Counted from the first letter of the stretch, positions 575 to 46,604 are shown. The stretch is 64,000 bases of DNA from Desulfobacterales bacterium (GCA_016931455.1 JAFGES010000125.1:2561-66560); one strand, 5' to 3'. The notes: generated by a model from the sequence alone, not told the origin. Program-made: numbers and translations.

Positions 575-1546
575 ATGATACCCATTCGCGATACCATTTC
601 ATCCAAAAATTATCCGATCGTCAATAACTGTCTTATTGGTATCAATGGGATCATTTATTTGGTGCAGCTGGCACAAGGGCCCTTTTTGGAACACTTTATT
701 TATACCTACGGCCTTGTTCCCGCACGTTTTTCCATACCCCAGCTTGCAGCCTACTTTTCTACAGGTCAACAACTGTTTTCACTAATCTCTTTCATGTTTC
801 TGCACGGCAGCTTCTGGCACCTTCTCGGCAATATGTGGTCGCTGTATATATTCGGCGATAATGTCGAAGACAGTCTGGGTCCTTTGCGTTATCTTTTATT
901 TTACCTGCTCTGCGGCCTGGCTTCCGGATTGTCCTATCTATTTTTAAATATAAACTCAAATATCCCGACCATTGGTGCAAGCGGAGCGATCGCAGGGGTC
1001 ATGGGCGCCTATTTTATACTCCATCCAAAATCAAAAATATTAACCCTGATTCCGATTTTTATTATACCCTATTTCATCGAGATACCGGCCTTTTTCTTCC
1101 TTGGTATTTGGTTTTTGCTGCAATTTATCAACGCCGCCGGAAGCCATGGGGATATCAGCGGTATTGCCTGGTGGGCTCATATCGGTGGATTTATATTCGG
1201 CATCATATTTTTGAAAATTTTTCTAGCTCTGCCCGGCAGCGGAGTCAGCGACCGGATACGTCAACTGACCGTTAAAAAAAAGACCGAGCACCTCCAAGTC
1301 ATTCATCCAATCGGTACTGGAGATGATTCCAACCTTTACGGCACAATCCATATCACTCCTTACGAAGCTCATGAAGGCAGTCAAAAACTGGTCAATATCC
1401 CCTGGGGATTCTATAAGCGGCCTTTTAGAGTCGTAATTCCACCGGGAATAAAAGAAGGCACCATTTTACGTCTTAGAGGATTAGGCAGGCAAACGGGAGG
1501 TGGTCGAAGCGGAGATTTGTTTCTGAAAGTGATTATTCAATCTTAA
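575..1546 (+). CDS. Rhomboid-family intramembrane serine protease with a C-terminal DnaJ-C-like domain
   Basis: Typical MIPIRD start. Motifs HGSFWHLLGNMWSLYIFG, GASGAIAGVMGAY (catalytic Ser) and AHIGGFIFG (His), with about 6 TM segments. The last ~85 aa (NLYGTIHITPYEAHEGSQKLV...IPPGIKEGTILRLRGLG...GDLFLKVII) follow the DnaJ/CbpA C-terminal domain pattern. Confidence 0.85.
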   Translation: MIPIRDTISSKNYPIVNNCLIGINGIIYLVQLAQGPFLEHFIYTYGLVPARFSIPQLAAYFSTGQQLFSLISFMFLHGSFWHLLGNMWSLYIFGDNVEDSLGPLRYLLFYLLCGLASGLSYLFLNINSNIPTIGASGAIAGVMGAYFILHPKSKILTLIPIFIIPYFIEIPAFFFLGIWFLLQFINAAGSHGDISGIAWWAHIGGFIFGIIFLKIFLALPGSGVSDRIRQLTVKKKTEHLQVIHPIGTGDDSNLYGTIHITPYEAHEGSQKLVNIPWGFYKRPFRVVIPPGIKEGTILRLRGLGRQTGGGRSGDLFLKVIIQS

Positions 1547-9329: not shown

Positions 9330-9860
9330 ATGAACAAGGATATTCTCGATAGAATAGAAGTCATGCAGGCCGATATAACCCAACTGGAAGTTGACGCCAT
9401 TGTAAATGCAGCCAATAAAACCTTACTGGGCGGTGGCGGTGTGGATGGAGCCATTCACCGAGCAGCAGGTCCCGGATTATTGGCGGAATGCCGTACACGA
9501 GGTGGATGCCGGACCGGCGAAGCCAAGATTACCATGGGCCATAATCTCCTTGCGCAATATGTGATTCATACGGTAGGTCCTGTTTACAGCGGTAAAAGCG
9601 AAGATAGTAAACTTTTATCGCAATGTTATCAAAATAGCCTTCAACTTGCCGTGGATCATGATGTTATCTCAATTGCTTTTCCGGCCATAAGTTGTGGAAT
9701 TTACGGCTACCCGATCGAAGAGGCATGCAAAATTGCGTTGGATACAACCTGCAATTTTCTTAATAAAAATAAGTCCATTAAAAAAGTTATATTTACTCTT
9801 TTTTCATCCGCAGATTATCAAATCTATACAGATTATCTCAAAAAATTATCGAACCAATAA
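9330..9860 (+). CDS. ymdB: Macro-domain protein (O-acetyl-ADP-ribose deacetylase, YmdB-like)
   Basis: GDITQLEVDAIVNAAN...LLGGGGVDGAIHRAAG...HTVGPV...IAFPAISCGIYGYP. The start is set at the ATG 5 nt after a GGGAGG RBS; the ORF opens at 9318. Confidence 0.88.
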   Translation: MNKDILDRIEVMQADITQLEVDAIVNAANKTLLGGGGVDGAIHRAAGPGLLAECRTRGGCRTGEAKITMGHNLLAQYVIHTVGPVYSGKSEDSKLLSQCYQNSLQLAVDHDVISIAFPAISCGIYGYPIEEACKIALDTTCNFLNKNKSIKKVIFTLFSSADYQIYTDYLKKLSNQ

Positions 9861-9918
9861 AATTGAGGCAAATTTTTACAGCTTTATCTCCTGAATAATT
9901 TTTATATGATGTTGTGCA

Positions 9919-9947
9919 TTGACAATTTTGATCCTTATGATTAAAAT
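9919..9947 (+). promoter_or_regulatory. Sigma70-like promoter candidate for the selenoprotein gene
   Basis: TTGACA (9919-9924), 17-nt spacer, TAAAAT (9942-9947). Pattern only. Confidence 0.4.
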
Positions 9948-10078
9948 CATTTAAAAAATTTATATTTCTAAAAATTGGGCTTGTTCATTTAACGAACCTA
10001 ATTTTTATTTAAAAGGAGCACAAAAATTGCTTCGCAAATTAACCGAAGGAATAAACTAAAGTTTATTGGGAGAAAAGC

Positions 10079-10399
10079 ATGTTTGAAGTAACAAAGTCAG
10101 CCTCAGAAAAAATATCTGAATATTTTAAAGGGAAAAAGATTTCCCCGATTCGGATTTTTCTGAACCAGGGCGGATGAGCCGGGCCTTCACTTGCATTGGC
10201 CCTGGATGCGCCAAAAGACACGGATGATGTTTATGAGATTGATAATTTCAAATATCTCATAGAAAAAGATTTATTGAAAAGATTAAAACCAATTAAGGTA
10301 GATTTCTTGGATCAGCGATTCAAGATAACCTGTGGCATAAATTTGGGAGGAGGATGCGGCAGCAGTTGCGGGTCAGGAGCATCCTGCAGTACCCAATAA
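10079..10399 (+). CDS. HesB/IscA-like Fe-S cluster assembly-type protein with in-frame UGA (selenocysteine) at codon 33
   Basis: ATG at 10079, 6 nt after GGGAG. It reads MFEVTKSASEKISEYFKGKKISPIRIFLNQGG-UGA(10175-10177)-AGPSLALALDAPKD...GGGCGSSCGSGASCSTQ, all in one frame with track ORF 10196..10399. The UGA falls where IscA/HesB proteins have the first conserved Cys (GGC-SG). A hairpin follows directly, and there is a terminator at 10420. Confidence 0.75.
10179..10205 (+). promoter_or_regulatory. SECIS-like hairpin immediately 3' of the UGA
   Basis: CC-GGGCC (10179-10185) pairs with GGCCC-u-GG (10198-10205), with one bulged U and a 12-nt apical loop UUCACUUGCAUU. It begins 2 nt after the UGA, as expected for bacterial SECIS elements. 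Confidence 0.55.
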
Positions 10400-10419
10400 G
10401 TTTGGAAGCTGCAAAGCAC

Positions 10420-10450
10420 AAGGCAACATCGTGTTGATGTTGCCTTTTTT
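10420..10450 (+). terminator. Rho-independent terminator
   Basis: AAGGCAACATC / GTGTT loop / GATGTTGCCTT followed by a T-run, 21 nt after the stop codon. Confidence 0.8.
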
Positions 10451-10721
10451 GTTTTATTTTGACCCGGGTCTTCGTATATGTTCGTTGGAAAAGATTCAAC
10501 TAAACCTTAAAATTTATAAATATCTTAAAGTTCGTATCTTCCCACAACACTTTGTTTTTTTTACCATCTCCTCTTGCATAATATATATTGCCTTTGAAAG
10601 TCGTCCCCGCTAAAATAAAAAAATAAATATTCAACGAAAAAATCCTGCGGGAATGCCTTTACTTCGGTTAAACCCACGATGACCCAATAAATGCGATTTT
10701 ATCAACAATAGGAGGTGTCAT

Positions 10722-11624
10722 ATGAAAATTTTTATTACAGGTGGAACAGGTTTTGTAGGTACCCATTTGTCAAATTTCCTTCTGAGCAGAGGGCATGAAG
10801 TTACCGCCGTCGGCATTCGTCCGAGTCAGAATCGGATTAACCACGAAAATTTTCATTACATTTCGGGCGACACATCTAAAGAAGGTCGCTGGCAGGAAGA
10901 ATTAAAAAATATTGATGCCGTCGTCAACCTAGCAGGAGCCTCTATATTCAAGCGCTGGAACAAAAGCTATAAGCAACTGATTTATGACAGTCGAATTTTA
11001 ACAACACGCAACTTAGTTGGATCTTTGCCCAAAGATAAAAAAGTTGTCCTTTGTAGCACTTCAGCAGTCGGATATTATGGTGATCGCGGTAATGATACGC
11101 TCACTGAAGAAGAACCGAATGGGGATGGTTTTCTTGCCCAGGTCTGCGCAGACTGGGAAAAAGAAGCTCGACGGGCGGAAGAAAAGGGGATTCGAGTTGC
11201 AACCACAAGGTTTGGTATTGTCTTGGGCAAAAACGGAGGCGCACTGAAAAAAATGATTGCAGCTTTCCGTTTTTATTTAGGTGGTCCACTGGGAAACGGT
11301 ATGCAGTGGTTTCCCTGGATTCACATGGAGGATCTCGTGTCTGCAATGCTCTTTATTATGGAAAATGAGAAAATGAATGGTCCGGTTAACTTCTGTTCCC
11401 CCAACCCGGTCAGAAACCGTGACCTTGCAAAAACGCTCGGACATATACTCAATAGACCGGCACTAATGCCTGCCCCGGCTTTTATAATTCGCCTCGTGAT
11501 GGGAGAATTTGGAAATACGATTTTAACTAGCCAGAAAGCGGTTCCGGAAAAACTTTTAAAGCATGGTTTTAATTTTCAGTATTCAGGTATTCAGGCAGCC
11601 ATCAGCGACATAGTCAAAAGTTGA
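10722..11624 (+). CDS. NAD-dependent epimerase-like SDR, TIGR01777/YfcH-type (with DUF1731-like C-terminus)
   Basis: MKIFITGGTGFVG Rossmann start; 300 aa; C-terminal ...PEKLLKHGFNFQY typical of the YfcH family. AGGAGG RBS. Confidence 0.8.
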   Translation: MKIFITGGTGFVGTHLSNFLLSRGHEVTAVGIRPSQNRINHENFHYISGDTSKEGRWQEELKNIDAVVNLAGASIFKRWNKSYKQLIYDSRILTTRNLVGSLPKDKKVVLCSTSAVGYYGDRGNDTLTEEEPNGDGFLAQVCADWEKEARRAEEKGIRVATTRFGIVLGKNGGALKKMIAAFRFYLGGPLGNGMQWFPWIHMEDLVSAMLFIMENEKMNGPVNFCSPNPVRNRDLAKTLGHILNRPALMPAPAFIIRLVMGEFGNTILTSQKAVPEKLLKHGFNFQYSGIQAAISDIVKS

Positions 11625-11725: not shown

Positions 11726-14362
11726 ATGAAACACATAAAATTTTTGAAACATACCTCACATCCAAATTTTAAGTCATTTTATTTTGAAATTACTTGCATT
11801 ATTTTTATTCTTATATTTCTACTGATAGATTCTGTATCGGCTCAGAAAACAGAAAATCAAATGCCTAAAAATCAGATCAATCATTCCGATCTCAGTGACT
11901 CACTCGATAAAACTATTCAGATCGAAAAAGAAAATATAAAGGAACTCAATGAAACGTTAAAAAATGTTCAACGTTTAGAAAAAACCATGGATGTAGAGCT
12001 CAATGCCTACATGATACAAATTCCAGCTTATAACACCTTGCTGCATACTGCAACGACCGACATTGACGACCTGCAAAAGGCTTGGCTGAATAATCGAGAC
12101 ACCTTGGCCGCAATCACCGCCACGCTTAAAGAGTTGAATCAAAAGCGTAGCGCAATTGAGCAATTGCAGATTCAAACCGATGAACAATATACCCTGAATC
12201 AAAACAAATTATCGGAAATCAAGGCCAAAGATTCTATTACGGAAAGTTCTTTGAAAAAGCTCCAAATTTTAACGCAAATCCTTTCAAATAAGAATGAAGT
12301 GCTTGAAAAAATTAATAAAATACATATTAAACAAATAAGCAAGCTCAATATAATCCAGCAGGACTTCACCGTTTTTGCGGAAAAATTCGACAAACGGATT
12401 AAAGAGAGGAAAAAGCAGGAACTTTTCCAGCGTAAAGCCAACCAACTGGCGTTGTTATCCTGGGATCTGATCGAACTTGAACTTAAACAATTAACGGATC
12501 AAGGGCGCTTGCTCATATCAAGCAATTTTTGGAAGGAACAGTTTCAAACTTTTTGGAAATCGAACGGTTTTTTATTTTTCAGCTTTATTCTGCTTTTCGG
12601 CGTTATTCAGACCTTGCTGTTTCGTTTTCGTATTTTTCTCAACCGTCTGGAACAAAAACCCTTTTACAGTCAACAGGTGTGGTGCTGCCTTACTTTACAA
12701 GTTTTTCAAAGTTCATTGCCGCTGCTCGTCACAACCCTTTTTGTTTACATTTATAGCCGTTTGCAACTTTTCTATCCTTCGGTTCCCTTTATACGAGTCA
12801 TCGTTTTTGTGTTGTTGATCCGTCTGTTTACACAATGGATATTGGATTTTTTAAAGCTATTGAATCGTGAAAAAGCGCTTAAAATATCCGGCCATTTGAT
12901 AACTCGTCTGCGGATTCTTATCATTTCGATTCGATATTATGCGTTTGCTTACGTGATCTTCGAATGGGCTTTGGGCAATTCCAGCGTTATTTTACTTTTT
13001 GGCCGTATCCTTGCTGAAATCAGCTTGTTTATCTGGTGTTTGCTCTCTTTAAAAATTTTCAAAAAAACACTGGAACAAAGCTTTCAAGCCAAACCAAAGT
13101 TAAATCTGATCTTAAAGCCGCTGATTATAGGCATAGTTGACTTGGTTGCCGGTGGTGGTTTGTTTCTTGAATTCATCGGATACGGTCAACTCGCATTGTA
13201 TTGGTATGTTTCATGGGGCCGAAGTATTGTTGTCTTTTTATGGGGCACTTTAATTATTTTAGTTCTGCATGAATGGGATCAAGAGATCCGCAAAAGCCTC
13301 CTATCGGAGAAAAAAGGTTCCGTAAAACCGGTTTATCCGTTTCGATGGCTTTTCATTCGAGTTTCTTGGCTCGCTGCTACCGGCCTTATTATTATGTGTC
13401 TCTTTTTCGCATGGGGTACAAAACAAACTGCCATCATTGCCTTTTTAAGCGCCTTAAATCATCAGATTTCCATCGGCGGAATGCGCTTCAGCCTGCTGGG
13501 GTTTGTATATGCTTTTGTAATTTTATTGGTCACGCATGCGGCCACGCGTCTGTGGCGGCGTGTCTTTAAGAACAAAATCATAGCCGATAGCGGCTTGGAG
13601 TTAGGCCTTCAAGAGTCCGTCACCACGATCACCGCTTATATCCTATGGACTTTTGGAATATTAGGGGCACTTTACGCTTTTGGAATCAACCCCACTTCGC
13701 TGGCGGTCTTATTCGGCGCCTTAGGTATTGGTCTGGGGTTTGGTCTTCAAAACATTTTCAATAATTTTGTAAGTGGCCTTATCCTTCTTTTTGAAAGGCC
13801 GATCCAGGTCGGCGATGTGGTCGAAGTCAACGGTATTTGGGGCAAAGTAAATAAAATCAACGTGAGATCCACATTGGTGCAGACTTATGACAATGCTTCG
13901 CTTATCATCCCCAACTCCGAATTTATCAGCAGCCAACTGACCAATTGGAGTTTCAAAGATTCACGAATACGCCGTAAAATCACTGTCGGGGTTGCTTATG
14001 GCTCTGATTTGAGTCTTGTCCGTCAAACATTAATGGAAGTCGCTGAAAATCATCCCAGGGTATTGACCGAACCACAGCCTGATATTCTCTTTGAAGATTT
14101 TGGTGACAGCGCCCTTGTCTTTACATTGCGTATCTGGACTCTCGTGGATTATGCGTTATCAACCGATACGGAAATCCGTTTGGAAATCGATCGACTCTTC
14201 AGAAAACGAAACATTCAAATTCCATTTCCACAGCGAGATATTCACCTTCAATCAACCTCAGTGCAAAAAAATCTTGATCAAGCTGAAAAAGAAATTAATG
14301 TTTCACAAACTTCTATTTTACCGGCAACCAGGGGAGAAGATGTCAAATCGACTGATCAATGA
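11726..14362 (+). CDS. Large mechanosensitive channel, MscS family (MscK/KefA-like)
   Basis: Signal/TM start, a long N-terminal coiled-coil, multiple TM segments, and a C-terminal MscS core ([38 protein letters not shown]). Confidence 0.88.
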
Positions 14363-16430
14363 AAAAAGCCCCTATCTCCTCCAGCACGCGCATAATCCGG
14401 TCGACTGGTACCCTTGGTCGGATGCCGCTTTTGCACGTGCGAAAGCAGAGAACAGACCTGTTTTTCTCTCGATTGGTTACGCTACCTGCCATTGGTGTCA
14501 CGTCATGGAAAAGGAGTCTTTTGAAGATGAAGAGACAGCTCGATATCTCAACGAAACCTTTATTTGCATCAAGGTCGATCGGGAAGAGCGCCCCGACATA
14601 GACGCAGTGTACATGAACCTATGCCAAATGCTCATTGGAAGCGGCGGCTGGCCTCTGACGATTTTTATGACACCGAATAAAAAACCCTTTTTTGCCTCCA
14701 CTTACCTGCCTAAACGCAATCGATTCGGCCGAACCGGATTGATTGAACTTTGTAAAAAAATTAAAGAAACTTGGCGGTCGGAAAGGCAAAAAGTCATGGA
14801 GGCAGCCGAAACTATTTCTACTAAATTAGCAGATACTTTTATATTTTCTCCAGCCGAACAGACGGATGCATCTTTATTGGATCAGGCCTACAATGAAATC
14901 CGGCCAACCTTTGATTCTCGATTTGGGGGTTTCAGTCCGGCACCTAAATTCCCAATGCCGCATCGATTGCTTTTTCTGATGCGCTATTATCATCAAAGCG
15001 GCAATGAAAAGGCGCTTGAAATGGTTAAAAAAACACTGATCACGATGCGTTTGGGAGGGATATGGGATCATGTGGGTTTTGGTTTTCATCGATACGCCAC
15101 CGATAAAAAATGGTTACTGCCTCATTTTGAAAAAATGCTTTACGATCAGGCTTTAATATCTATGGCTTACCTTGAGATCTTTCAAATTACACGGGATTCC
15201 TTTTTTTCTCAAACCGCTAAGGAAATTTTTACTTATGTGATAGGGGAAATGACTTCAGAGCAAGGGGCTTTTTTTGCGGCTCAAGATGCTGACAGCGAAG
15301 GTGAGGAAGGCAAATTTTTTACCTGGACAACCGAAAAATTTCGACAGGTTCTTGGAGAAGAAGAAGCAAAGTTTTGGAAAAAAATTTTTAATCTCAGCCC
15401 CGACGGCAACTTTTTTGAAGAGGCAACCGGCCAAAAGACCGGAACCAATATTCTTCATTTAACCAAGCCCTTGGTTCAGTGGGCAAATGAATTAGAAATA
15501 GAAGAAAAGCAGTTTTTATTGAAATGGAAAACAGCTAGAAAAAAGCTGTATCAACAAAGACAGCATCGAATTCATCCGTTTAAAGATGACAAAATATTGA
15601 CCGACTGGAATGGGTTAATGATCGCTTCCTTGGCCCTGGCTTCTCGTGTATTGGATATCCCCGCGTACATAAAGGTTGCTGAGAAGACAGCTAATTTTAT
15701 TCTGACAAAAATGCAGGATGATTCCGGGGGGCTATGGCATCGTTTTAGAGATAATGAAGCTGCAGTCAAACCGCACGCAAACGACTACGCTTTTTTTATC
15801 TGGGGACTTTTACATTTATACCAAGCCGCATTTAACCCGACCTATTTGCATCATGCAATCAGGCTTCAAAATCGCATGCTCGATGATTATTGGGACACGG
15901 AAAATGGTGGTTTCTTCCTTTCAGCAAAAACAGATACGGAGCTGCCGATTCGTCCCAAAGAGTTATATGACGGTGCAACCCCATCGGCGAACTCAGTATC
16001 CCTTTTCAACCTAATGTGCCTATCGCGACTAAGCGGTGAGGTAAAATGGGAGAATAAGGCTAAAGACTTGGTTCGCAGCTTTGCCGGGACGGTTAAAATT
16101 TATCCCGCAGCCTACACCCACTTTCTTTCGAGTCTGTATTTCGCCCTTGGGCGGGAAGGGGAAGTAGTTATCACCGGCAAAGAGGATGCGGCCGATACTC
16201 GGGAAATGCTATCGAGTCTGAACGGCAGATTTGCTCCTAATCAGGTCGTACTTTTTAAGTCGGATAAAAATAAAAATGAGTTGGCCGAGGTTGCCGAATT
16301 TACGGTCAACTTACAACCGGTGAAAGGAAAAGCCACAGCTTATGTATGCGCCGATTTGAGCTGCAGCCAACCGACTAACGATGTCCGGAAAATGCTCGAA
16401 TTGATTCGATCAAACGAAAAGATACCATAA
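14340..16430 (+). CDS. Thioredoxin-domain protein of the DUF255/YyaL (SPATA20-like) family
   Basis: [26 protein letters not shown]...[13 protein letters not shown]. The start is set at the ATG after GGGGAGAAG. It overlaps the channel gene by 23 nt. The upstream 83 codons of the track ORF lie inside that gene. Confidence 0.88.
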
Positions 16431-27659: not shown

Positions 27660-28616
27660 ATGAAATTAAAGAAAGAATACATCATACTTGGTGCGGTTAT
27701 TATTGGTGTGAGCCTATATTTGGGGTTACACAACGCGAATCGTACTCATTACCGAATGCCGAATCTTGCTGAAATTGATGGGAAATATATTTCAAAGATC
27801 GAGATTGGCAATGCGGGTGAATTCTTTACCCTAGACAAAAAAGATAACACTTGGTATATAGGGCCGGAGCAATACCCGGCTGATACGGAGAAAATAAAAA
27901 ATATGCTGGATGTGATTGAAAGCTTGACGGTAACCGCATTGGTTTCAGAATCAAAAAATTATATCCGTTATGATTTAAACGATGAAAAAAAAATTGCAGT
28001 GAAAGCATGGTCCGGCAGTACATTAAGTCGAGAGTTTGATATTGGAAAAGCCGCTCAGACCTATCAACATACGCATATTATGCTGGCCGGTGATTCTAAT
28101 GTATATCACGCCCGAGGGGATTTCAGACGAAAATTTGATCAGACCATTGCTAACTTGCGGGATAAGACCGTTTTATCTTTTGAACAAAATGAAATTCGAA
28201 AGATAGAATTTAAAAAAGATAATGAAATTTTATTAGTGCTTGAGCGTAAAGAAATACCGATTGTAAAGGCCAAGGAAAAGGATGCCGAAGGTACACCTCC
28301 AGCTTCAACCGAATCAAAGATTATCTGGCAAGATGCTGAAGAAAAAAGTGTGGATGAGACCAAAGTCAGGCAGCTGCTGACGACATTATCGTCGTTGACG
28401 TGTGAAACGTATATCAACAATAGCAAAAAAGAAGATTTCAAGAATCCCCTCCTCACATTCAACTTAAAAGGAACACAAGAATATTTTCTTTCCATATTCC
28501 CTAAAACCGATAAGGATGCTAAAAGCTATCCCGCCGTTTCATCAGGAAATACCTATCCGTTTTTATTGCCGGACCACCGAATTGATAATATGAAAACAAC
28601 GATTGATGAAATTTAG
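27660..28616 (+). CDS. N-terminally anchored protein, DUF4340-like by position and architecture
   Basis: Single N-terminal TM. Fourth gene of the operon, the usual neighbour of GldG-like genes. Family assignment not verified. Confidence 0.55.
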   Translation: MKLKKEYIILGAVIIGVSLYLGLHNANRTHYRMPNLAEIDGKYISKIEIGNAGEFFTLDKKDNTWYIGPEQYPADTEKIKNMLDVIESLTVTALVSESKNYIRYDLNDEKKIAVKAWSGSTLSREFDIGKAAQTYQHTHIMLAGDSNVYHARGDFRRKFDQTIANLRDKTVLSFEQNEIRKIEFKKDNEILLVLERKEIPIVKAKEKDAEGTPPASTESKIIWQDAEEKSVDETKVRQLLTTLSSLTCETYINNSKKEDFKNPLLTFNLKGTQEYFLSIFPKTDKDAKSYPAVSSGNTYPFLLPDHRIDNMKTTIDEI

Positions 28617-33010: not shown

Positions 33011-34330
33011 ATGCTGCATGCTAAATATAAAACCGGACTGGTATTTTTTCCCGCTTTTGACTGGGCAATAAGCCCTACCCATCCTGAAAGGGAAGAACGC
33101 CTCCTTTATACTCAGGACCAGGTCTTTGAAGAGGGGCTCTTTGATATCGACGGTATAATAGAATTTAAACCAGACCTGGTAACGATTGAAGACGTTCAGC
33201 GTGTTCATTTTTGTGTCCCGGACGTCTGTAATGTGATGACCGAATCCCATTTTATCAGCGCCGGTGGTGCAAAGACGATCGGAATGGCTTTACTTGACCG
33301 GAAGATTGAAAGAGGGTTTGCACTCGTGCGGCCTCCGGGTCACCATGCCATGCGTGTGGTCCATGGAGCCAGAGGTTTCTGTAATATCAATATTGAAGCC
33401 ATCATGATCGAATTTTTACGACAGACCTATAATATAAAAAAGGTTGCCATCGTTGATACGGACTGTCATCACGGCGATGGAACCCAGGATATTTATTGGC
33501 ATGATCCGAATACGCTCTTTATATCTCTGCATCAAGATGGCCGGACGCTTTATCCCGGATCCGGATTCACAAATGAGATGGGTGGGCCGACTGCAATAGG
33601 TACGACACTTAACATTCCTTTGCCGCCGCAGACATCTGAAGAAGGATTTTTATATACCATTGAAAATATCGTATTGCCGATCATTAATGATTTTAAACCG
33701 GAAATTATTATCAACTCGGCTGGACAGGACAATCACTTTTCAGATCCGATCACCAATATGAACTTTTCAGCTCAAGGATACGCCCATCTGACTAGACTCC
33801 TAAAACCGGATATCGCCGTGCTTGAAGGCGGATATTCGATTGAAGGGGCACTGCCCTATGTAAATTTAGGTATCATTTTAGCCATGGCCGGATTAGATTA
33901 CAGCCGAGTAAAAGAACCGAATTATGACCCGGCTAGTATTCGCCAGAAAACAAAAGTGACTGAGTGGATCAAGCAGACTGGAGAAGTCGTGCTGAATAAC
34001 TGGCAGCAAAAGGAAAAGATCAAGTCCGAAATTTTGAATGCAAAAGAATTTGATGAACGAAAACGTAATATCTATTATGATACGGACAATCTGATTGAAA
34101 CCCAAATTGAGACACTGCGTGTTTGCTCCGACTGCAGTGGTGTACTAAAGATTGATTCATCTTCAGACCGTGGCTTTCGCATTCTTGCCGTTCATATCCC
34201 TAGAAAAGCTTGTAAAGATTGCAAGGAAATCGGCTATCGATGGTATGAATCGGAAAAGTCGGATCGCTATGATTTCGTTTTTCTACAAGATCGCACCGAA
34301 GATCAGTACAGGGTAAAGAAGCTGAAATAA
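33011..34330 (+). CDS. Histone-deacetylase-family (arginase-fold) amidohydrolase with a C-terminal Cys4 zinc-ribbon-like extension
   Basis: RPPGHHA, DTDCHHGDGTQ, SAGQDNHFSDP and LEGGYS motifs. An extra ~70 aa carry CSDC...N25...CKDC. Confidence 0.85.
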   Translation: MLHAKYKTGLVFFPAFDWAISPTHPEREERLLYTQDQVFEEGLFDIDGIIEFKPDLVTIEDVQRVHFCVPDVCNVMTESHFISAGGAKTIGMALLDRKIERGFALVRPPGHHAMRVVHGARGFCNINIEAIMIEFLRQTYNIKKVAIVDTDCHHGDGTQDIYWHDPNTLFISLHQDGRTLYPGSGFTNEMGGPTAIGTTLNIPLPPQTSEEGFLYTIENIVLPIINDFKPEIIINSAGQDNHFSDPITNMNFSAQGYAHLTRLLKPDIAVLEGGYSIEGALPYVNLGIILAMAGLDYSRVKEPNYDPASIRQKTKVTEWIKQTGEVVLNNWQQKEKIKSEILNAKEFDERKRNIYYDTDNLIETQIETLRVCSDCSGVLKIDSSSDRGFRILAVHIPRKACKDCKEIGYRWYESEKSDRYDFVFLQDRTEDQYRVKKLK

Positions 34331-36771: not shown

Positions 36772-37701
36772 TTATAACTGCTTTTTCTTTTGGCATATCC
36801 ACCTTAAGGTGTTGGGCAGTTGCAATTTTTTCCGATATGTTTTTAGAAAATTTTGTTTGACACTGTATTGAGGCTTATTTTCGGTTTTAGAGCTTTGAGA
36901 CGGTATTTGTAATTCTTGTGTGCATTCTTTGATAATTTTTTCTCCTATCACTTTGCAATCTTTTACATAACCGGTCAGCAAGGATAGATCACAAATGATA
37001 TTAATTAGGCGAGGATATCCTTGGGAAAAGCAAAAGATTTCACGAACAGCTTTGGAGCTGAAAATTTTACTTTCAGATCCCGCTACTTTTAGACGATAGC
37101 GGATATAAGCTTCTGTTTCCTCTTCAGTTAAAGGATCGATATTGTAATTTATGGATATTCGCTGCCTGAGTGCTTTATTTTCGGGTTTAACTAATATTTC
37201 GTTAAATTCATTTTGTCCGACAAAGAAAATATTTATTAGTTTTTTTTTCTGTTTCTCAATGTTGGAAAGCAGGCGTATTTCTTCAAGCAACTCATGATTG
37301 AGGCGTTGAGCCTCGTCAATGATCAGTAAGACTTGTTTATTGGAAGCGTAATTTTTATAAAGAAAGTTAGTGAAAATAATCAAAAAAGTTGCTTTGTTGT
37401 TGAAATTTAGATTAATTTTAAAAGAATTGGCAATGAAATTGAAAAAGTCAATCTTTTCAAGACCTGGATCGGAAACTTTTGCAATTGTAATATCTTCACC
37501 GAGGCTGTTAAGCAACGCGTTAATTAACGTAGTTTTCCCCGTACCCACGTCGCCGGTAAGAAGAAGAAAACCCTTATTGTCTTGGAGGCCGTACTTCAAT
37601 ACAGAAAGGGCTTCTTTGTGTTTTTCCCCCAACCAAAGAAATCTCGGGTCGGTGCTGATCTGAAATGGTTTTTCTTTTAAATTATAATGTGATAGATACA
37701 T
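36772..37701 (-). CDS. ExeA-like AAA ATPase (secretion/EPS-locus type)
   Basis: MYLSHYNLKEKPF...GDVGTGKTTL (Walker A), LLIIDEAQ (Walker B). Resembles the ExeA/MshM and PEP-CTERM-locus ATPase families. Confidence 0.8.
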   Translation of the reverse strand: MYLSHYNLKEKPFQISTDPRFLWLGEKHKEALSVLKYGLQDNKGFLLLTGDVGTGKTTLINALLNSLGEDITIAKVSDPGLEKIDFFNFIANSFKINLNFNNKATFLIIFTNFLYKNYASNKQVLLIIDEAQRLNHELLEEIRLLSNIEKQKKKLINIFFVGQNEFNEILVKPENKALRQRISINYNIDPLTEEETEAYIRYRLKVAGSESKIFSSKAVREIFCFSQGYPRLINIICDLSLLTGYVKDCKVIGEKIIKECTQELQIPSQSSKTENKPQYSVKQNFLKTYRKKLQLPNTLRWICQKKKQL

Positions 37702-40077: not shown

Positions 40078-42015
40078 CTAAACTTGAGCCCAGACCATCT
40101 CACCGGTTTTTTGAGTATCATAGCCGCCCAGGTTTTTTACATGGTTTTTAAATTCCGTACTGTTGATTATTTTCAGCAGTAGTTGGATATTTTCAGATTC
40201 AAAATGCTTTTCCGGAATGATCAGGTCATATTGTTCGGTGGCAACCGGAATAAATTCTAAGTTAAGGGCTTTAGCCGCTGCGCAAATTGCCAATCCGGTA
40301 TCCACGGAACCGCTTAACACTGCCACGGCAATGGCCATATGGGTGAACTCCTCGTTTCGGTAACCATTGATATGAACCGGGTCCAGATGCAGCTTTTGCA
40401 GATGATAGTCCAGCAGAATCCGGGTTCCGGATCCGATTTGTCGGTTGATAAAGGAGATATCGTTGCGCAACAAGTCCTTGAAACCCTTAATTTGCTTTGG
40501 ATTTCCCGGTGGTATAATCAGGCCTTGTTGCCGGAAAACAAGATTGACGACTTTTAACCGTACATTGGGCAAATATTTTTTTATATAGGTTATATTATAA
40601 GAGCCGTCGCTTGGATCCAGCAGATGGCATCCACCTAAATGGCATACTCCCTTTTTAATCGCCATCAATGCTCCCATGCTGCCCACATGACTGGATGACA
40701 GTGTCATTCGGTTATATTTTGCTCTGACTTGATCGGCTAAAATATCTAGTGTATTGTCATGACTGCCGACGACAACAATAGTATTGTCGATCCAGGGCAA
40801 CGGTCGCAGCAGTTCCGCCGAAACCGGATCATGGGCGTTTAATCCTTCAGTTTGACTCGGAATCCGGATAATTCCGTCGGCTTCCGTGATGCTGGTTATA
40901 CAGCCGGCTCCGCGGGGTAGAGGTGTTGCTACGACTCGATCTTCCACTTTTCCAAGTTTTACCCGTAGAAACTCTTCGACACCAAGTTTTGATGCAATTT
41001 TGCGAGTAGGTTCGACCTCAATTTTATCCTGTTGGTGATCCGGCAGCCCGGTTAGCATGTATATCAACGGCCGGACAAATTGCTCAAAAGCAATGATTGC
41101 CGAGACAGGGTATCCCGGAATACCGAAAACCGGTGTATTTTTAACTGCGCCAATAAGGACCGGTTTTCCGGGCATGATGGTGACCCCATGGACGAGAACT
41201 TGGCCTAGATTGGAAACGACCGCTTTGACATAATCCTCAGATCCCGCCGAGGAGCCGCCGATGGTCATTATAATTTGAAAATCATTACTTACGGCTTCAG
41301 CCACCGCTTGTTCGATCTTTTCCAGGTCATCGGCTATGATCGCATGTCGGTGATAAGTACCGCCGCAAGCTTCAACCAGCTTCCCGAGAACAAGAGAATT
41401 GATTTCAATAACCTGACCGGGTTTAAGATTCTTTAATTCGATATTGCGCCAGTCTACAAGTTCCGATCCGGTGGGGATAATAAGAATTTTCGGTTTCTTA
41501 CGAACGGTAACCGAAAATATCCCCGCTGTCAGAAGAGCTCCCACACAATACGGTGTGATGAAATGACTACGGGGGAACAGCAGTTCGGTAGCGACAATAT
41601 CTTCCCCAATTCTGCGGACATGTTGCCAAGGATAGACCGGTGCTTCAATTTCGATGCGGTTTTCATCCAAAACATGGATATGTTCTATCATGATAACCGC
41701 ATCGGTATTTTCAGGGATGACATGGCCGGTATTGACATAAAAAGCGTCTTTGCCGACAATGAGTTCTTTGGGACTTGCGGTGCTTGCGCCGAAGGTGGAT
41801 TCTGCTCGAACCGCAATACCGTCCATTGCGGCAGCATGAAAATGAGGTGAAGAAATTTTTGCCGACACCGGCTCGGCGAGAACCCGACCGACAGCCTCTG
41901 GAACCGAAATTGTTTCGGTAGGAGGATCGTCAGACGGTTGAAACCGTTTAAAAACGATATTCCGCGCGTCATTGAGCGATTTCATTTTCAAATATATATT
42001 CCGATGTGTATTCAT
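40078..42015 (-). CDS. MoeA-type molybdopterin molybdotransferase fused to a C-terminal periplasmic-binding-protein-like domain
   Basis: MoeA core (SPHFHAAAMDGIAV..., IIMTIGGSSAGSEDY, PGKP) plus a ~230-aa extra C-terminal domain. Confidence 0.8.
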   Translation of the reverse strand: MNTHRNIYLKMKSLNDARNIVFKRFQPSDDPPTETISVPEAVGRVLAEPVSAKISSPHFHAAAMDGIAVRAESTFGASTASPKELIVGKDAFYVNTGHVIPENTDAVIMIEHIHVLDENRIEIEAPVYPWQHVRRIGEDIVATELLFPRSHFITPYCVGALLTAGIFSVTVRKKPKILIIPTGSELVDWRNIELKNLKPGQVIEINSLVLGKLVEACGGTYHRHAIIADDLEKIEQAVAEAVSNDFQIIMTIGGSSAGSEDYVKAVVSNLGQVLVHGVTIMPGKPVLIGAVKNTPVFGIPGYPVSAIIAFEQFVRPLIYMLTGLPDHQQDKIEVEPTRKIASKLGVEEFLRVKLGKVEDRVVATPLPRGAGCITSITEADGIIRIPSQTEGLNAHDPVSAELLRPLPWIDNTIVVVGSHDNTLDILADQVRAKYNRMTLSSSHVGSMGALMAIKKGVCHLGGCHLLDPSDGSYNITYIKKYLPNVRLKVVNLVFRQQGLIIPPGNPKQIKGFKDLLRNDISFINRQIGSGTRILLDYHLQKLHLDPVHINGYRNEEFTHMAIAVAVLSGSVDTGLAICAAAKALNLEFIPVATEQYDLIIPEKHFESENIQLLLKIINSTEFKNHVKNLGGYDTQKTGEMVWAQV

Positions 42016-42036
42016 TTTTAGCTTCCGATACTGGAA

Positions 42037-43266
42037 CTACAAGGGAATAATCTCAACTTCGGTTCCTTTTTCAAGGCCCTCGGTGTGAATGTCGATTTTT
42101 ATCAGACCATCAGCTTCTACCATGGTACGGATGAGACCGGACTTGCCCAAAATTGGTTCCGCCCAGTAAACCCCGTCCTTTTGAATAAGTCTGACGCGGA
42201 TATAATCAATTCTTCCCTGGGCGGAAGATAAGTTTCTCATAAGTAAAGCGGTGGGTCTAAATTCTTTTTTATACCGTTTTTTGAGCCCACTGATTTGTTC
42301 AATAAAAGGTTTGACAATACTGGTAAATACGACCATGGCTGATGCTGCATGCCCGGGCAGGCCCCAAAAAGCCTTTTTCTGGGTTTTTGCCAAAATTGTG
42401 GGTTTGCCGGGACTGATTGCGATTCCATGAACAAGGATAGTTGTAGCGGGCAAACAGGACAGCACTTTAATGGTGAAATCGTGTAAGCCGACCGAACTTC
42501 CCCCTGAAATCAGCACCATGTCGGATTGCTCTATGGCCGATAGGCATTTGGCTAAAAGCGTCTCAAACTCATCCCGCACAATTCCGAAAATCAAGGGAAT
42601 GCCACCGGTCTCTTTTACCAGACCGGATAAAGTATAGGTATTAATATCGCGAATCTGACTCATATTGGGAGTTTCATTAATCGGAATAATTTCATCGCCT
42701 GTCGAGATAATCCCAATCCGCGGCTTTCTGTAAACACAAACTTTCTTTTTGCCCAGGGCTGCTAAAAGTCCTGTTTCTTGAGGCCTAATTTTTTGACCGC
42801 GAGAAAGGAGAATTTCACCTTTGCCGATATCTTCGCCGATCGCCACAATATGTGTCCCCGGTGCAACGCTGCGATAAACTTCTATGGTTGTATCGTCAAT
42901 TGCGGCGCTGTGTTCAATCATGACAACACTATCGGCACCAGCGGGCAGCATGCCGCCGGTTGGAATTCTAACTGCCTCTCCGGCTCTAATTAAAATATCC
43001 GGCTTTTTCCCCATGGTGACGGAACCCTTAACCGTCAAATAGGCAGGGTTTGCCTCTGAAGCCCCAAAAGTAGATGCGCCACAGACGGCATAGCCGTCCA
43101 TAGTGGATCTGACAAAATCGGGAAGGTCGAGGTCGGAGACAATATCCACCGCAAGGATTCTCCCTGCCGCATCGAATAAAGAAACTTTTTCTGCTGCGAC
43201 GGGAGGAAATTCAGTTCGGTATCCGAGCACCTCTTTCGGATCTGTTACATTGAAAAAGGAATGCAT
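42037..43266 (-). CDS. moeA: Molybdopterin molybdotransferase
   Basis: RSTMDGYAV, VLISGGSSVGLHDF, SPGKP; 409 aa. Confidence 0.88.
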   Translation of the reverse strand: MHSFFNVTDPKEVLGYRTEFPPVAAEKVSLFDAAGRILAVDIVSDLDLPDFVRSTMDGYAVCGASTFGASEANPAYLTVKGSVTMGKKPDILIRAGEAVRIPTGGMLPAGADSVVMIEHSAAIDDTTIEVYRSVAPGTHIVAIGEDIGKGEILLSRGQKIRPQETGLLAALGKKKVCVYRKPRIGIISTGDEIIPINETPNMSQIRDINTYTLSGLVKETGGIPLIFGIVRDEFETLLAKCLSAIEQSDMVLISGGSSVGLHDFTIKVLSCLPATTILVHGIAISPGKPTILAKTQKKAFWGLPGHAASAMVVFTSIVKPFIEQISGLKKRYKKEFRPTALLMRNLSSAQGRIDYIRVRLIQKDGVYWAEPILGKSGLIRTMVEADGLIKIDIHTEGLEKGTEVEIIPL

Positions 43267-45467: not shown

Positions 45468-46604
45468 TTAATTGGTCACCCAGCGCATAATTGCTTCCAA
45501 AGGGCCGTGTTTGAAACGTTTTGTCCAGAAATAGGCAAATGTAACGGCAAAAATGCAGAAAATAAAGGCACTAGTGCAGGCCGTCCATAAGGAATGTTTG
45601 ACCTCCATACGTCCGGTTATTGCAAGAACAAGCAGGCATATCAAGATATGGGCAATATAAAGTGTCAAAGCCAACCGACCGGTATCCAGAAAAGGACGTA
45701 TCCATTTGGATTGGGCGGCTTTCTCTGCAATATTAATACTTAAAATAATGGTTACCAACGCGCTTCCGCCGGCTGAAATCAAATAGAAAAAATTAACTGG
45801 AAATGAATATTTATCCAATAAATAAGTGCTCATGATGACACTGATTAAATCCGCGTTGTCGGAAACCAAAGGAGAAAGCAATCTAATGGCAGATTCTCCG
45901 ATAATAATGCTCAGGATGCTGAAAATAAGGAGTTTTTTTCTAAATACAGTATTCATCAAATTTTGCCGACCAAACCACATGCCGGTCAGAAAATAAGCAA
46001 TCCAAGGGAAAACCGGATAATAGCCGTTAATAAAAATATTGCGAATCATCCCCTCCAGTGTCCAGATGTCGGATTCGAGTAGTACTTCCCAATCTAAACC
46101 GGTATGATATAAAAATAGGGAAAGCAGCAATATAGAGATTGTCAGCGCCATGTTGGTCAGTGTTAGGAGTATATAGCTCGGTGCGGATAACAGAAGGGCT
46201 CCGAAAATCATATAAATACCATAGAAATGCAAGATATCCGCCTCCCATACTCGGGCAAAAAGTAGGCCGACGGCAAACAGAAAAAAAGCGCGTCTGATAC
46301 ATATTTTTCGATTTTTAGACATGCCGGCTGGGTCTTGAGTAATGCGAGCCCGGCTGCTCAACAAAGAAAAGCCGATTCCAGCCAGGACGACAAATGTAGC
46401 TGCCGAGCGTCCGTCTAACAGTTCGACTATCCAGCTAAGCCATTCCGGCCCACTACTATAGGCTTCCAACAAATATTTAAAATTGACTATGACCATGCCG
46501 AAAATAGCTATCGCACGAGCAAAATCATAACCGTCAATTCGTTGTTTCGGCGGGTTAATTGCACTTGGATGCGGTAGGGTAATGGGGATGGGATTTGCTG
46601 GCAA
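45468..46604 (-). CDS. Polytopic membrane protein, DUF1624/DUF418 (YeiB / acyltransferase-like) type
   Basis: RIDGYDFARAIAIFGMVIVNF start region and ~10 TM segments. Apparent TTG start after GAGGA. Confidence 0.65.
   Translation of the reverse strand: MPANPIPITLPHPSAINPPKQRIDGYDFARAIAIFGMVIVNFKYLLEAYSSGPEWLSWIVELLDGRSAATFVVLAGIGFSLLSSRARITQDPAGMSKNRKICIRRAFFLFAVGLLFARVWEADILHFYGIYMIFGALLLSAPSYILLTLTNMALTISILLLSLFLYHTGLDWEVLLESDIWTLEGMIRNIFINGYYPVFPWIAYFLTGMWFGRQNLMNTVFRKKLLIFSILSIIIGESAIRLLSPLVSDNADLISVIMSTYLLDKYSFPVNFFYLISAGGSALVTIILSINIAEKAAQSKWIRPFLDTGRLALTLYIAHILICLLVLAITGRMEVKHSLWTACTSAFIFCIFAVTFAYFWTKRFKHGPLEAIMRWVTN

What the first reader, a model, noticed from the sequence alone, without database searches (positions are those of the whole stretch)
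10079..10399. HesB/IscA-like gene that is intact only with UGA read as selenocysteine (split by the ORF track)
Seen in sequence: a good RBS (GGGAG) and an ATG at 10079 open a frame encoding MFEVTKSASEKISEYFKGKKISPIRIFLNQGG. That frame hits TGA at 10175-10177 and continues in the same frame as AGPSLALALDAPKD...GGGCGSSCGSGASCSTQ to 10399. The track reports only the 3' part, from an artificial TTG. The two halves together give a complete IscA/HesB-fold layout. The N-terminal beta-strand region ends in GG-X-xG, where X is the first invariant cluster-ligand Cys of IscA/HesB proteins. The Cys-rich C-terminus corresponds to the CGCG ligand pair. A 7-bp GC-rich hairpin (10179-10205) starts 2 nt after the UGA, which is the position expected for a bacterial SECIS. 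Established knowledge: HesB-like selenoproteins were reported in prokaryotic selenoproteome surveys, notably in delta-proteobacteria, so the family is not new. This locus would still be missed or truncated by standard gene calling, and it marks the organism as a Sec user.
Basis: partly seen in the sequence, partly recalled or inferred. Interest (0 to 1): 0.65.

Follow-up and report, generated by a model that had tools for sequence, protein, structure and literature searches.

The report
HesB/IscA-like selenoprotein gene split by UGA

Summary
A single frame runs from ATG 10079 to TAA 10397-10399, interrupted only by TGA 10175-10177. With Cys in place of the UGA, the 106-aa product passes the curated NCBIfam model NF038090 'IscA_HesB_Se' (115.2 bits, cut-off 85). 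The UGA codon aligns with the ligand Cys of the GCSG motif in solved IscA structures. All 90 related loci first examined (80 from named Desulfobacterales-type assemblies, 10 from database look-ups) have TGA at the same codon, and the 32 upstream codons are conserved at protein level. Other relatives carry TGT or TGC there. The family's real SECIS core is GGCUC-UGGAY-GAGCC, 20 nt after the UGA. Its synonymous sites are nearly frozen, one stem pair covaries, and the loop G is invariant in 103 of 103 Sec forms but not in Cys forms. The window's copy (10196-10214) carries a C·C mismatch and is at the weak end of the family. No Sec machinery was found in the window. Verdict: a new member of a known kind, of low interest.

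The parts
9919..9947 (+). Sigma-70-like promoter (TTGACA, 17 nt spacer, TAAAAT). It implies a leader of about 125 nt.
   Evidence: 11 of 12 consensus matches, the best site in the region. This is a consensus match only, and function is inferred.
10068..10072 (+). Shine-Dalgarno sequence GGGAG, 6 nt before the ATG.
   Evidence: read from the sequence. Relatives have AGGAG or GGAGA at the same place.
10079..10399 (+). Complete coding sequence of the HesB/IscA-like selenoprotein: 106 codons including Sec33, plus the TAA stop at 10397-10399.
   Evidence: frame. NF038090 at 115.2 bits against a cut-off of 85; relatives score 105-122 bits; tblastn matches residues 1-106 across the TGA.
10175..10177 (+). 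In-frame TGA, codon 33, predicted selenocysteine in the motif GG-U-AGP (the published UxGP motif).
   Evidence: TGA sits at the same codon in all 90 loci L001-L090 and in 24 further matches in the metagenome loci. TGT or TGC sits there in 55 matches. The column aligns with the Cys of GGCSG/SGCSG in solved IscA structures 1nwb, 1r94 and 1s98.
10196..10214 (+). Homologue of the family's SECIS core. The stem is UUGGCCC/GCGCCAA with a C·C mismatch at 10201/10209. The apical loop is UGGAU (10203-10207), with the conserved G at 10204.
   Evidence: synonymous variation is nearly frozen at codons 41, 42 and 44; 97 of 103 Sec forms are fully paired, the loop is UGGAY in 103 of 103, and pair 3 covaries C-G with U-A; the window hairpin is -5.9 kcal/mol against -10.0 for the family consensus.
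10179..10205 (+). It is a window-strengthened structure that competes with the SECIS core, not the conserved SECIS.
   Evidence: z = +0.40; no support beyond shuffles, and two of its seven pairs are unpaired in most relatives.: -11.9 kcal/mol, and it dominates the free RNA; fourth most stable of 103 sequences in this region.
10355..10387 (+). C-terminal Cys cluster C93-x3-C97-x5-C103 (CGSSCGSGASC), the presumed partner ligands of Sec33.
   Evidence: C93, C97 and C103 are conserved in at least 90% of homologues. C93 and C97 align with the CGC of Aquifex IscA; the tail has low confidence (is flexible) in the AF2 model of a relative.
10420..10456 (+). Intrinsic terminator: 12-bp stem, 3-nt loop and a T-run. 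The gene is monocistronic.
   Evidence: the only terminator-like site in 9800-10750.

Best explanation
Window 10079-10399 is one monocistronic gene for a 106-residue A-type-carrier-like (IscA/HesB fold) selenoprotein of the curated NCBIfam family NF038090 (IscA_HesB_Se). Codon 33 (UGA, 10175-10177) is read as selenocysteine. This occurs when SelB·GTP·Sec-tRNA(Sec) binds a small hairpin in the coding sequence about 20 nt downstream. In the family this hairpin is GGCUC-UGGAY-GAGCC. In the window it is UUGGCCC-UGGAU-GCGCCAA at 10196-10214. Sec33 occupies the position of the first cluster-ligand cysteine (Cys35 of E. coli IscA by established knowledge). Together with the C-terminal C-x3-C-x5-C tail, it most likely binds or transfers an Fe-S cluster or a related metal or chalcogen species. 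It would have to be melted by the ribosome when the UGA reaches the A site. What is shown: the frame, family membership, Sec/Cys column homology, conservation of TGA, RNA-level constraint on the hairpin, and the IscA fold of a 55%-identical relative. What is inferred: actual Sec insertion in this organism, SelB binding to this hairpin, and the Fe-S function.
For: Frame and split ORFs. Family: NF038090 at 115.2 bits against cut-off 85, inside the 105-122 range of relatives. Column homology: full-length database homologues have Cys at column 33, or W where TGA was misread. The column aligns to the GCSG Cys of solved IscA structures. Conservation: 496 relatives were found in one-genome-per-species contigs. 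The best 80 are nearly all labelled Desulfobacterales, Desulfobacteraceae or 'delta proteobacterium'. All 90 loci L001-L090 have TGA at codon 33 behind a conserved 32-codon N-terminus with normal synonymous variation. SECIS: relative synonymous entropy is 0.06-0.09 at codons 41, 42 and 44, against 0.33-1.0 (mostly above 0.6) at every other codon. The 5-bp stem is intact in 97 of 103 distinct Sec forms against 10 of 40 Cys forms. The loop is UGGAY in 103 of 103 Sec forms against 29 of 40 Cys forms. Pair 3 switches C-G to U-A in 15 distinct sequences, and RNAalifold picks the same helix. The loop starts 25 nt after the UGA with G at loop position 2, which fits the published bSECIS model (PMC13188914). 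Fold: the AF2 model of Cys relative P0003 (pLDDT 83) matches IscA 1x0g, 1r94 and 1s98 and SufA 2d2a at probability 1.0. Standard genetic code: 12 of 39 window genes end in TGA. Expression signals: promoter, SD and terminator. Literature: HesB-like selenoproteins with the UxGP motif are established in Deltaproteobacteria (PMC1794560, PMC1976440, PMC13188914).
Against: No selA, selB, selD or tRNA-Sec was found in the 64-kb window, so the Sec trait of this organism is unverified. The window's SECIS homologue has a C·C mismatch. At -5.9 kcal/mol it misses the -7.5 kcal/mol criterion of the bSECIS model, and it is out-competed by the upstream hairpin in free RNA. Only 6 of 103 Sec forms have any stem mismatch. 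The window protein deviates from the family at several well-conserved columns: G34A, E44A, G56N and G80R. No close relative (above 64% identity) is available to test purifying selection on this particular lineage. Pfam PF01521 and TIGR00049 are not reached at their curated cut-offs. The biochemical function of HesB-like selenoproteins is untested (PMC13188914).
Confidence: 0.9

Rival explanations
1. Pseudogene. A Cys codon (TGC or TGT) mutated to TGA, so the gene is dead or dying in this organism.
For: The window's SECIS homologue is weakened by a C·C mismatch, at -5.9 kcal/mol. Several conserved residues are substituted. No Sec machinery was seen in the window.
Against: TGA is the ancestral state, present in all 90 loci L001-L090 and in 24 further matches in the metagenome loci. 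The 73 codons after the TGA are open, with about a 1% chance of that. The family HMM score is typical of relatives. Promoter, SD and terminator are intact. The loop UGGAU and six of seven stem pairs are retained.
Confidence: 0.04
2. Two separate products. A 32-aa peptide ends at the UGA, and an independent 67-aa protein starts at TTG 10196 (or the equivalent Met40 in relatives), as gene callers annotate it.
For: Gene callers report exactly this in the window and in relatives. Codon 40 is ATG in 85% of relatives.
Against: There is no SD sequence before the TTG. The 67-aa piece would lack β1-β2 and the ligand residue of the IscA fold. Both pieces are always adjacent, in one frame, with exactly one TGA between them, and full-length Cys forms join them seamlessly. 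The ATG at codon 40 flanks the constrained hairpin, not a start site.
Confidence: 0.03
3. The UGA is read through as another amino acid (Trp or Gly in a reassigned code, or Cys by near-cognate or mis-charged tRNA) without the selenocysteine machinery.
For: Some database entries translate the codon as W. The Sec machinery is not verified for this genome.
Against: TGA is a normal stop for 12 of 39 genes in the window. The downstream hairpin with an invariant loop G is constrained only in TGA forms and relaxes in Cys forms. That is the signature of SelB-dependent recoding. Trp or Gly at an invariant ligand-Cys column would be non-functional.
Confidence: 0.03

Closest known systems
NCBIfam NF038090 'IscA_HesB_Se' (IscA/HesB family protein; Sec/Cys subfamily)
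   Same: The full-length HMM match is above the curated cut-off. Length is about 103-106 aa. The GG-[U/C]-xGP motif, the conserved DxPKDTDD segment and the C-terminal three-Cys tail are all present. Relatives from Desulfobacterales score the same.
   Different: The window is a divergent member, at most 64% identical to any relative found. It has AGP instead of GGP after Sec, Ala instead of Glu at codon 44, Arg at the G80 column, and a mismatched SECIS stem.
HesB-like selenoprotein family of the selenoproteome surveys (TIGR01911, motif UxGP; Zhang et al. 2006, PMC1794560; PMC13188914)
   Same: A small HesB-related protein with Sec in a UxGP motif, common in Deltaproteobacteria. Sec-to-Cys conversions with remnant SECIS structures are reported there and are also seen here.
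   Different: The window protein scores only 32.9 bits against TIGR01911 (cut-off 66.35), so it belongs to the sister model NF038090, not to TIGR01911 itself.
A-type Fe-S carriers IscA/SufA/ErpA (PF01521, TIGR00049; structures 1r94, 1s98, 1x0g, 2d2a, 1nwb)
   Same: The same fold (on a 55%-identical relative). The first ligand Cys column equals Sec33. A flexible Cys-bearing C-terminal tail is present.
   Different: Sec replaces Cys at ligand 1. The C-terminal CGC is replaced by C-x3-C-x5-C, giving three conserved Cys. Scores are below the curated cut-offs of PF01521 and TIGR00049. The gene is not in an isc or suf operon.
Bacterial SECIS element (E. coli fdhF type; consensus bSECIS model, PMC13188914 Fig. 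2)
   Same: A hairpin inside the coding sequence, with a 5-nt apical loop, G at loop position 2 followed by G, and a loop that starts 25 nt after the UGA (allowed range 16-37). The family stem is 5-7 bp at about -10 kcal/mol.
   Different: The window's copy has an internal C·C mismatch and only -5.9 kcal/mol (model criterion at most -7.5). A stronger upstream hairpin competes for its 5' arm.

Membership tests
NF038090 IscA_HesB_Se | Whole-protein HMM score at or above the curated cut-off (85 bits) | tested here: met
   115.2 bits, E=1.4e-33, residues 1-95 on profile positions 1-101 of 101 (U replaced by C). Relatives score 105-122 bits.
NF038090 IscA_HesB_Se | Sec or Cys at the GG-[U/C]-xGP column, with homologues showing both states | tested here: met
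   TGA is present in all 90 loci L001-L090 and in 24 further matches in the metagenome loci. TGT or TGC is present in 55 matches.
NF038090 IscA_HesB_Se | Conserved C-terminal Cys residues (three, spaced C-x2-3-C-x4-6-C) | tested here: met
   C93, C97 and C103 are conserved in at least 90% of homologues. All three are present in the window.
HesB-like selenoprotein, TIGR01911 (HesB_rel_seleno) | HMM score at or above the curated cut-off (66.35 bits) | tested here: not met
   32.9 bits. Relatives score 27-37 bits.
HesB-like selenoprotein, TIGR01911 (HesB_rel_seleno) | UxGP motif around the Sec (PMC13188914 table) | tested here: met
   Window has U-A-G-P. Relatives have U-G-G-P.
A-type Fe-S carrier (PF01521 / TIGR00049) | Curated HMM cut-offs | tested here: not met
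   no Pfam hit for the full product, and the N-terminal fragment scores 13.3 bits against 26.3. TIGR00049 scores 39.6 against 58.8. Many relatives do carry a precomputed PF01521 hit.
A-type Fe-S carrier (PF01521 / TIGR00049) | IscA fold | tested here: met
   The AF2 model of Cys relative P0003 (55% identical to the window product) matches 1x0g, 1r94, 1s98 and 2d2a with TM 0.6-0.7 and probability 1.0. The window sequence itself could not be submitted.
A-type Fe-S carrier (PF01521 / TIGR00049) | Three ligand cysteines C-x(n)-C-G-C | tested here: inconclusive
   the first ligand column equals Sec33. C93 and C97 align to the CGC only across a 2-residue insertion. The family has a different C-terminal pattern, and cluster binding is untested.
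Bacterial SECIS (bSECIS consensus model, PMC13188914) | Apical loop of 3-9 nt on an upper stem of at least 4 bp | tested here: met
5-nt loop. The family has a 5-bp core stem. The window has 6 of 7 pairs with a C·C mismatch one pair below the loop-closing pair.
Bacterial SECIS (bSECIS consensus model, PMC13188914) | G in the first two loop positions, usually followed by G or U | tested here: met
Loop UGGAU at 10203-10207. G at position 2 is invariant in 103 of 103 Sec forms and lost in 11 of 40 Cys forms.
Bacterial SECIS (bSECIS consensus model, PMC13188914) | 16-37 nt between the UGA and the apical loop | tested here: met
25 nt (10178-10202).
Bacterial SECIS (bSECIS consensus model, PMC13188914) | MFE at or below -7.5 kcal/mol | tested here: not met
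   the window hairpin is -5.9 kcal/mol and the family consensus -10.0; the family median is -8.8, and the window is the sixth weakest of 103.
Sec-decoding trait of the host genome | selA, selB, selC (tRNA-Sec) and selD present | not testable with these tools
   Only 64 kb is available. ARAGORN finds no tRNA, and none of the 30 scanned ORFs is a sel gene.

The most novel reading that the evidence does not exclude
In the window's lineage the SECIS may have been remodelled into a two-state element. Three lineage-specific substitutions strengthen an upstream hairpin (10179-10205), and two weaken the canonical SelB-binding hairpin (10196-10214). The SECIS 5' arm is therefore sequestered until a translating ribosome melts the upstream stem. 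This could couple Sec insertion efficiency to translation rate or selenium supply, or it could reflect a SelB with altered hairpin preference.
Probability: 0.08. Interest if true: 0.45.

Novelty: new member of a known kind. Interest (0 to 1): 0.2.

Why it matters
The practical value is for annotation. The gene should be called as one 106-codon selenoprotein CDS (transl_except at 10175-10177), not as a 67-aa hypothetical protein. The same correction applies to about a hundred relatives from Desulfobacterales-type and unnamed metagenome assemblies, which appear in public protein sets as 32-aa plus 65-67-aa fragments or with Trp at the Sec position. The comparative data also give a precise, testable SECIS definition for this family: GGYUC-UGGAY-GARCC, 20 nt after the UGA. 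They further show the element decaying in Cys forms. That agrees with earlier reports of remnant SECIS structures, and with the published inference that this family converts only from Sec to Cys. None of this changes current understanding of selenoproteins. The biochemical role of Sec in an IscA-like scaffold remains an open but already recognised question.

Tried and rejected
(1) Single-sequence folding of 10170-10230.

It was rejected as the conserved element.

(3) Rfam at gathering and at E-value thresholds gave no SECIS or other meaningful RNA family. Bacterial SECIS elements are not usefully modelled there.

(4) Pfam on the joined product gave no hit. NCBIfam was needed.

(5) The search for the Sec machinery in the window found nothing. 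ARAGORN found no tRNA at all. NCBIfam or Pfam scans of 30 ORFs, including every ORF of selA, selB or selD size, gave LepA, an aconitase-family large subunit, two MoeA, ThrRS, MATE, PGM, MFS, RNase D, EpmA and others, but no sel gene.

(6) A scan for other ORF pairs split by a TGA in the window gave no convincing second selenoprotein gene.

It was repeated with 10 closer sequences.

The 55%-identical Cys relative P0003 was used instead.

(9) Attempts to identify the source organism or a close strain by exact protein look-ups found only a 2987-nt Logan contig (SRR13394437) carrying NDK. Nothing was found for the 67-aa ORF or the macro-domain neighbour.

(10) A search for a Cys paralogue in the window found none.

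Full report
**Observation.** GGGAG at 10068-10072 is followed after 6 nt by ATG 10079. Thirty-two sense codons (MFEVTKSASEKISEYFKGKKISPIRIFLNQGG) lead to TGA at 10175-10177. The same frame continues for 73 codons (AGPSLALALDAPKD...GGGCGSSCGSGASCSTQ) to TAA at 10397-10399. The mechanical ORF list shows the gene as two pieces: 10079-10177 (32 aa) and 10196-10399 (67 aa, from TTG). A strong sigma-70-like promoter lies at 9919-9947 (11 of 12 matches). The only terminator-like hairpin of the region lies at 10420-10446, followed by a T-run. The gene is therefore monocistronic.

**Family.** With Cys in place of the UGA, the 106-aa product matches NCBIfam NF038090 'IscA_HesB_Se' end to end (115.2 bits, curated cut-off 85, E=1.4e-33).
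- Sec and Cys relatives score 105-122 bits, so the window protein is a typical member by score.
- It does not reach the cut-offs of TIGR01911 'HesB_rel_seleno' (32.9 against 66.35), TIGR00049 (39.6 against 58.8) or Pfam PF01521.
- Against solved structures, it aligns with Aquifex IscA (1nwb, E=1e-5) and E. coli IscA (1r94, 1s98).
- In those alignments residue 33 lies on the Cys of the GGCSG/SGCSG motif, and C93 and C97 lie on the C-terminal CGC across a 2-residue insertion.
- An AlphaFold2 model of the 55%-identical Cys relative P0003 (pLDDT 83, flexible C-terminal tail) matches IscA 1x0g, 1r94 and 1s98 and SufA 2d2a at probability 1.0.
- The window sequence with U replaced by C could not be submitted to that tool.

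**Is the TGA a Sec codon?** Several lines say yes.
- In the protein database, full-length homologues have Cys at column 33, or W where a gene caller misread TGA. A second group are 65-67-aa stubs that start at 'MALDE'.
- The contigs that encode those stubs show the same layout as the window: a conserved 32-codon ORF, one TGA, then the stub in the same frame.
- A scan of one genome per species found 496 relatives. The best 80 are nearly all labelled Desulfobacterales, Desulfobacteraceae or 'delta proteobacterium'.
- All 90 loci then in hand have TGA at codon 33.
- A metagenome scan seeded with Cys forms added 55 TGT or TGC matches and 24 more TGA matches. Two contigs (L121, L162) carry a Sec and a Cys paralogue side by side.
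- The 32 codons before the TGA are conserved at protein level while their third positions vary freely, so they are translated in this frame.
- TGA is an ordinary stop for 12 of 39 window genes, which excludes a reassigned genetic code.

**SECIS.** It is no better than shuffled sequence, however (z = +0.40). Across 103 distinct Sec forms it shows no pairing or covariation beyond shuffled controls.

It also fails three of the four criteria of the published bacterial SECIS model (PMC13188914). That model requires:
- an apical loop of 3-9 nt;
- G in the first two loop positions;
- 16-37 nt between the UGA and the loop;
- MFE at or below -7.5 kcal/mol.

The family's conserved element lies further downstream: GGCUC-UGGAY-GAGCC, whose stem starts 20 nt after the UGA. 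The evidence is as follows.
- Relative synonymous entropy falls to 0.06-0.09 at codons 41 (GCT in 85 of 87 sequences), 42 (CTG in 85 of 87) and 44 (GAG in 84 of 85). Every other codon lies between 0.33 and 1.0, mostly above 0.6.
- The five core pairs are all intact in 97 of 103 Sec forms, against 10 of 40 Cys forms (p=1.5e-16).
- The loop is UGGAY in 103 of 103 Sec forms. In 11 of 40 Cys forms the loop G is lost through synonymous Leu changes (p=2.7e-7).
- These p-values are only indicative, because the sequences are related.
- The third pair switches from C-G to U-A in 15 distinct sequences (GCU-Ala with GAG, against GUU-Val with GAA), with U·G intermediates.
- RNAalifold recovers the same helix.
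- Remnant SECIS structures in Cys forms of HesB-like proteins were already reported (PMC1794560).

**The window's copy of this element.** The window's copy of this hairpin is UUGGCCC-UGGAU-GCGCCAA at 10196-10214. The loop and six of seven pairs are kept, and two extra outer U-A pairs are present. GCU-to-GCC at codon 41 and GAG-to-GCG (Glu to Ala) at codon 44 create a C·C mismatch at 10201/10209.
- The hairpin is worth -5.9 kcal/mol, against -10.0 for the family consensus.
- In free RNA the upstream hairpin, which uses the same GGCCC arm, dominates with probability about 0.95.
- If the 9-15 nt after the UGA are held single-stranded, as they would be in the ribosome's mRNA channel (an inference from established footprint sizes), the SECIS pairs form with probability 0.34-0.57.
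- This places the window at the edge of the family range but inside it. It is the sixth weakest SECIS region and the fourth strongest upstream structure of 103.
- Fifteen of 103 Sec forms also have the core hairpin out-competed in the free 48-mer.

**What could not be shown.** The window has no tRNA gene at all. None of its 30 scanned ORFs is selA, selB or selD. No second TGA-split gene is convincing. The organism is not in the genome collection, and only a 3-kb contig from run SRR13394437 shares its NDK exactly. Synteny (SpoU methylase and NDK upstream, as in L001; epimerase/DUF1731 downstream, as in L009) and the best protein matches place it among the Desulfobacterales. This group is known for large selenoproteomes (PMC1794560, PMC1976440, PMC13188914). 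Sec decoding in this organism is therefore a strong inference, not a demonstration.

**Mechanism and comparison with known systems.** The most likely mechanism is SelB-dependent recoding of UGA33, directed by the 10196-10214 hairpin. The product is an IscA-fold protein in which Sec replaces the first cluster-ligand Cys and works with a C-x3-C-x5-C tail.
- It is a member of NF038090.
- It works like, but by HMM cut-off is not a member of, the TIGR01911 HesB-like selenoproteins (motif UxGP) described in the selenoproteome surveys.
- It is a distant, sub-threshold relative of canonical IscA, SufA and ErpA.

Rival readings (pseudogene, two separate ORFs, non-Sec read-through) together deserve about 10%.

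**Verdict.** The finding is real and correctly interpreted in its main point. The family is already curated, so this is a new member of a known kind and of low interest. The useful corrections are the true position of the SECIS and the nature of the C-terminal Cys motif.

Noticed in passing
L162:380-1300 and L121:1190-2620: Two metagenome contigs carry a Cys form and a Sec form of this HesB/IscA-like gene on the same strand, about 0.5-1 kb apart. These may be Sec/Cys isoform pairs, which would allow selenium-independent backup.
   Followed up: partly
L106, L114, L116, L122, L148 (about 20-40 nt after the Cys codon): Some Cys forms keep the complete GGCUC...GAGCC stem. Some of these have a loop mutated to UUGAU or UCGAU by synonymous Leu changes. 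These look like decaying 'fossil' SECIS elements, consistent with the Sec-to-Cys direction reported for this family.
   Followed up: partly
proteins P0001, P0002, P0014, P0020 and P0040-P0049: Public protein sets hold this family either with Trp at the Sec position (TGA translated under a wrong genetic code) or as 65-67-aa stubs named 'hypothetical protein'. This is systematic mis-annotation across many Desulfobacterales MAGs.
   Followed up: yes
window 10014-10059: Inside the roughly 125-nt leader of the gene there is an AGGAG (10014-10018). Eight nt further on is a 10-codon mini-ORF, TTG-CTT-CGC-AAA-TTA-ACC-GAA-GGA-ATA-AAC-TAA (10027-10059). It could be a leader peptide or chance.
   Followed up: no
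window 40078-43266 (- strand): Two tandem MoeA-type molybdopterin molybdotransferase genes: 409 aa, and a 645-aa fusion of the PRK14498 type. This fits an organism with heavy Mo/W-enzyme use, such as formate dehydrogenases, which are typical selenoproteins in this clade.
   Followed up: partly
window 50576-54439 (- strand): A 1287-aa ORF, the largest in the window. It was not scanned against any family library.
   Followed up: no
window 575-1546, 27660-28616, 33011-34330, 45468-46604: Four ORFs of 318-439 aa with no NCBIfam match at the thresholds used (E at most 1e-5 or 1e-10).
   Followed up: no
window 36772-37701 (- strand): An ATPase related to the XrtA/PEP-CTERM-system-associated family (TIGR03015, 275 bits, below the 324.5 cut-off), next to a phosphomannomutase/phosphoglucomutase gene. 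This hints at an exopolysaccharide/exosortase locus.
   Followed up: no
window 11726-14362 and 14091-16430 (+ strand): The listed ORF of the DUF255/thioredoxin-domain protein (from TTG 14091) overlaps the end of the 878-aa MscS-like channel gene by about 270 nt in another frame. Its true start is probably further downstream.
   Followed up: no
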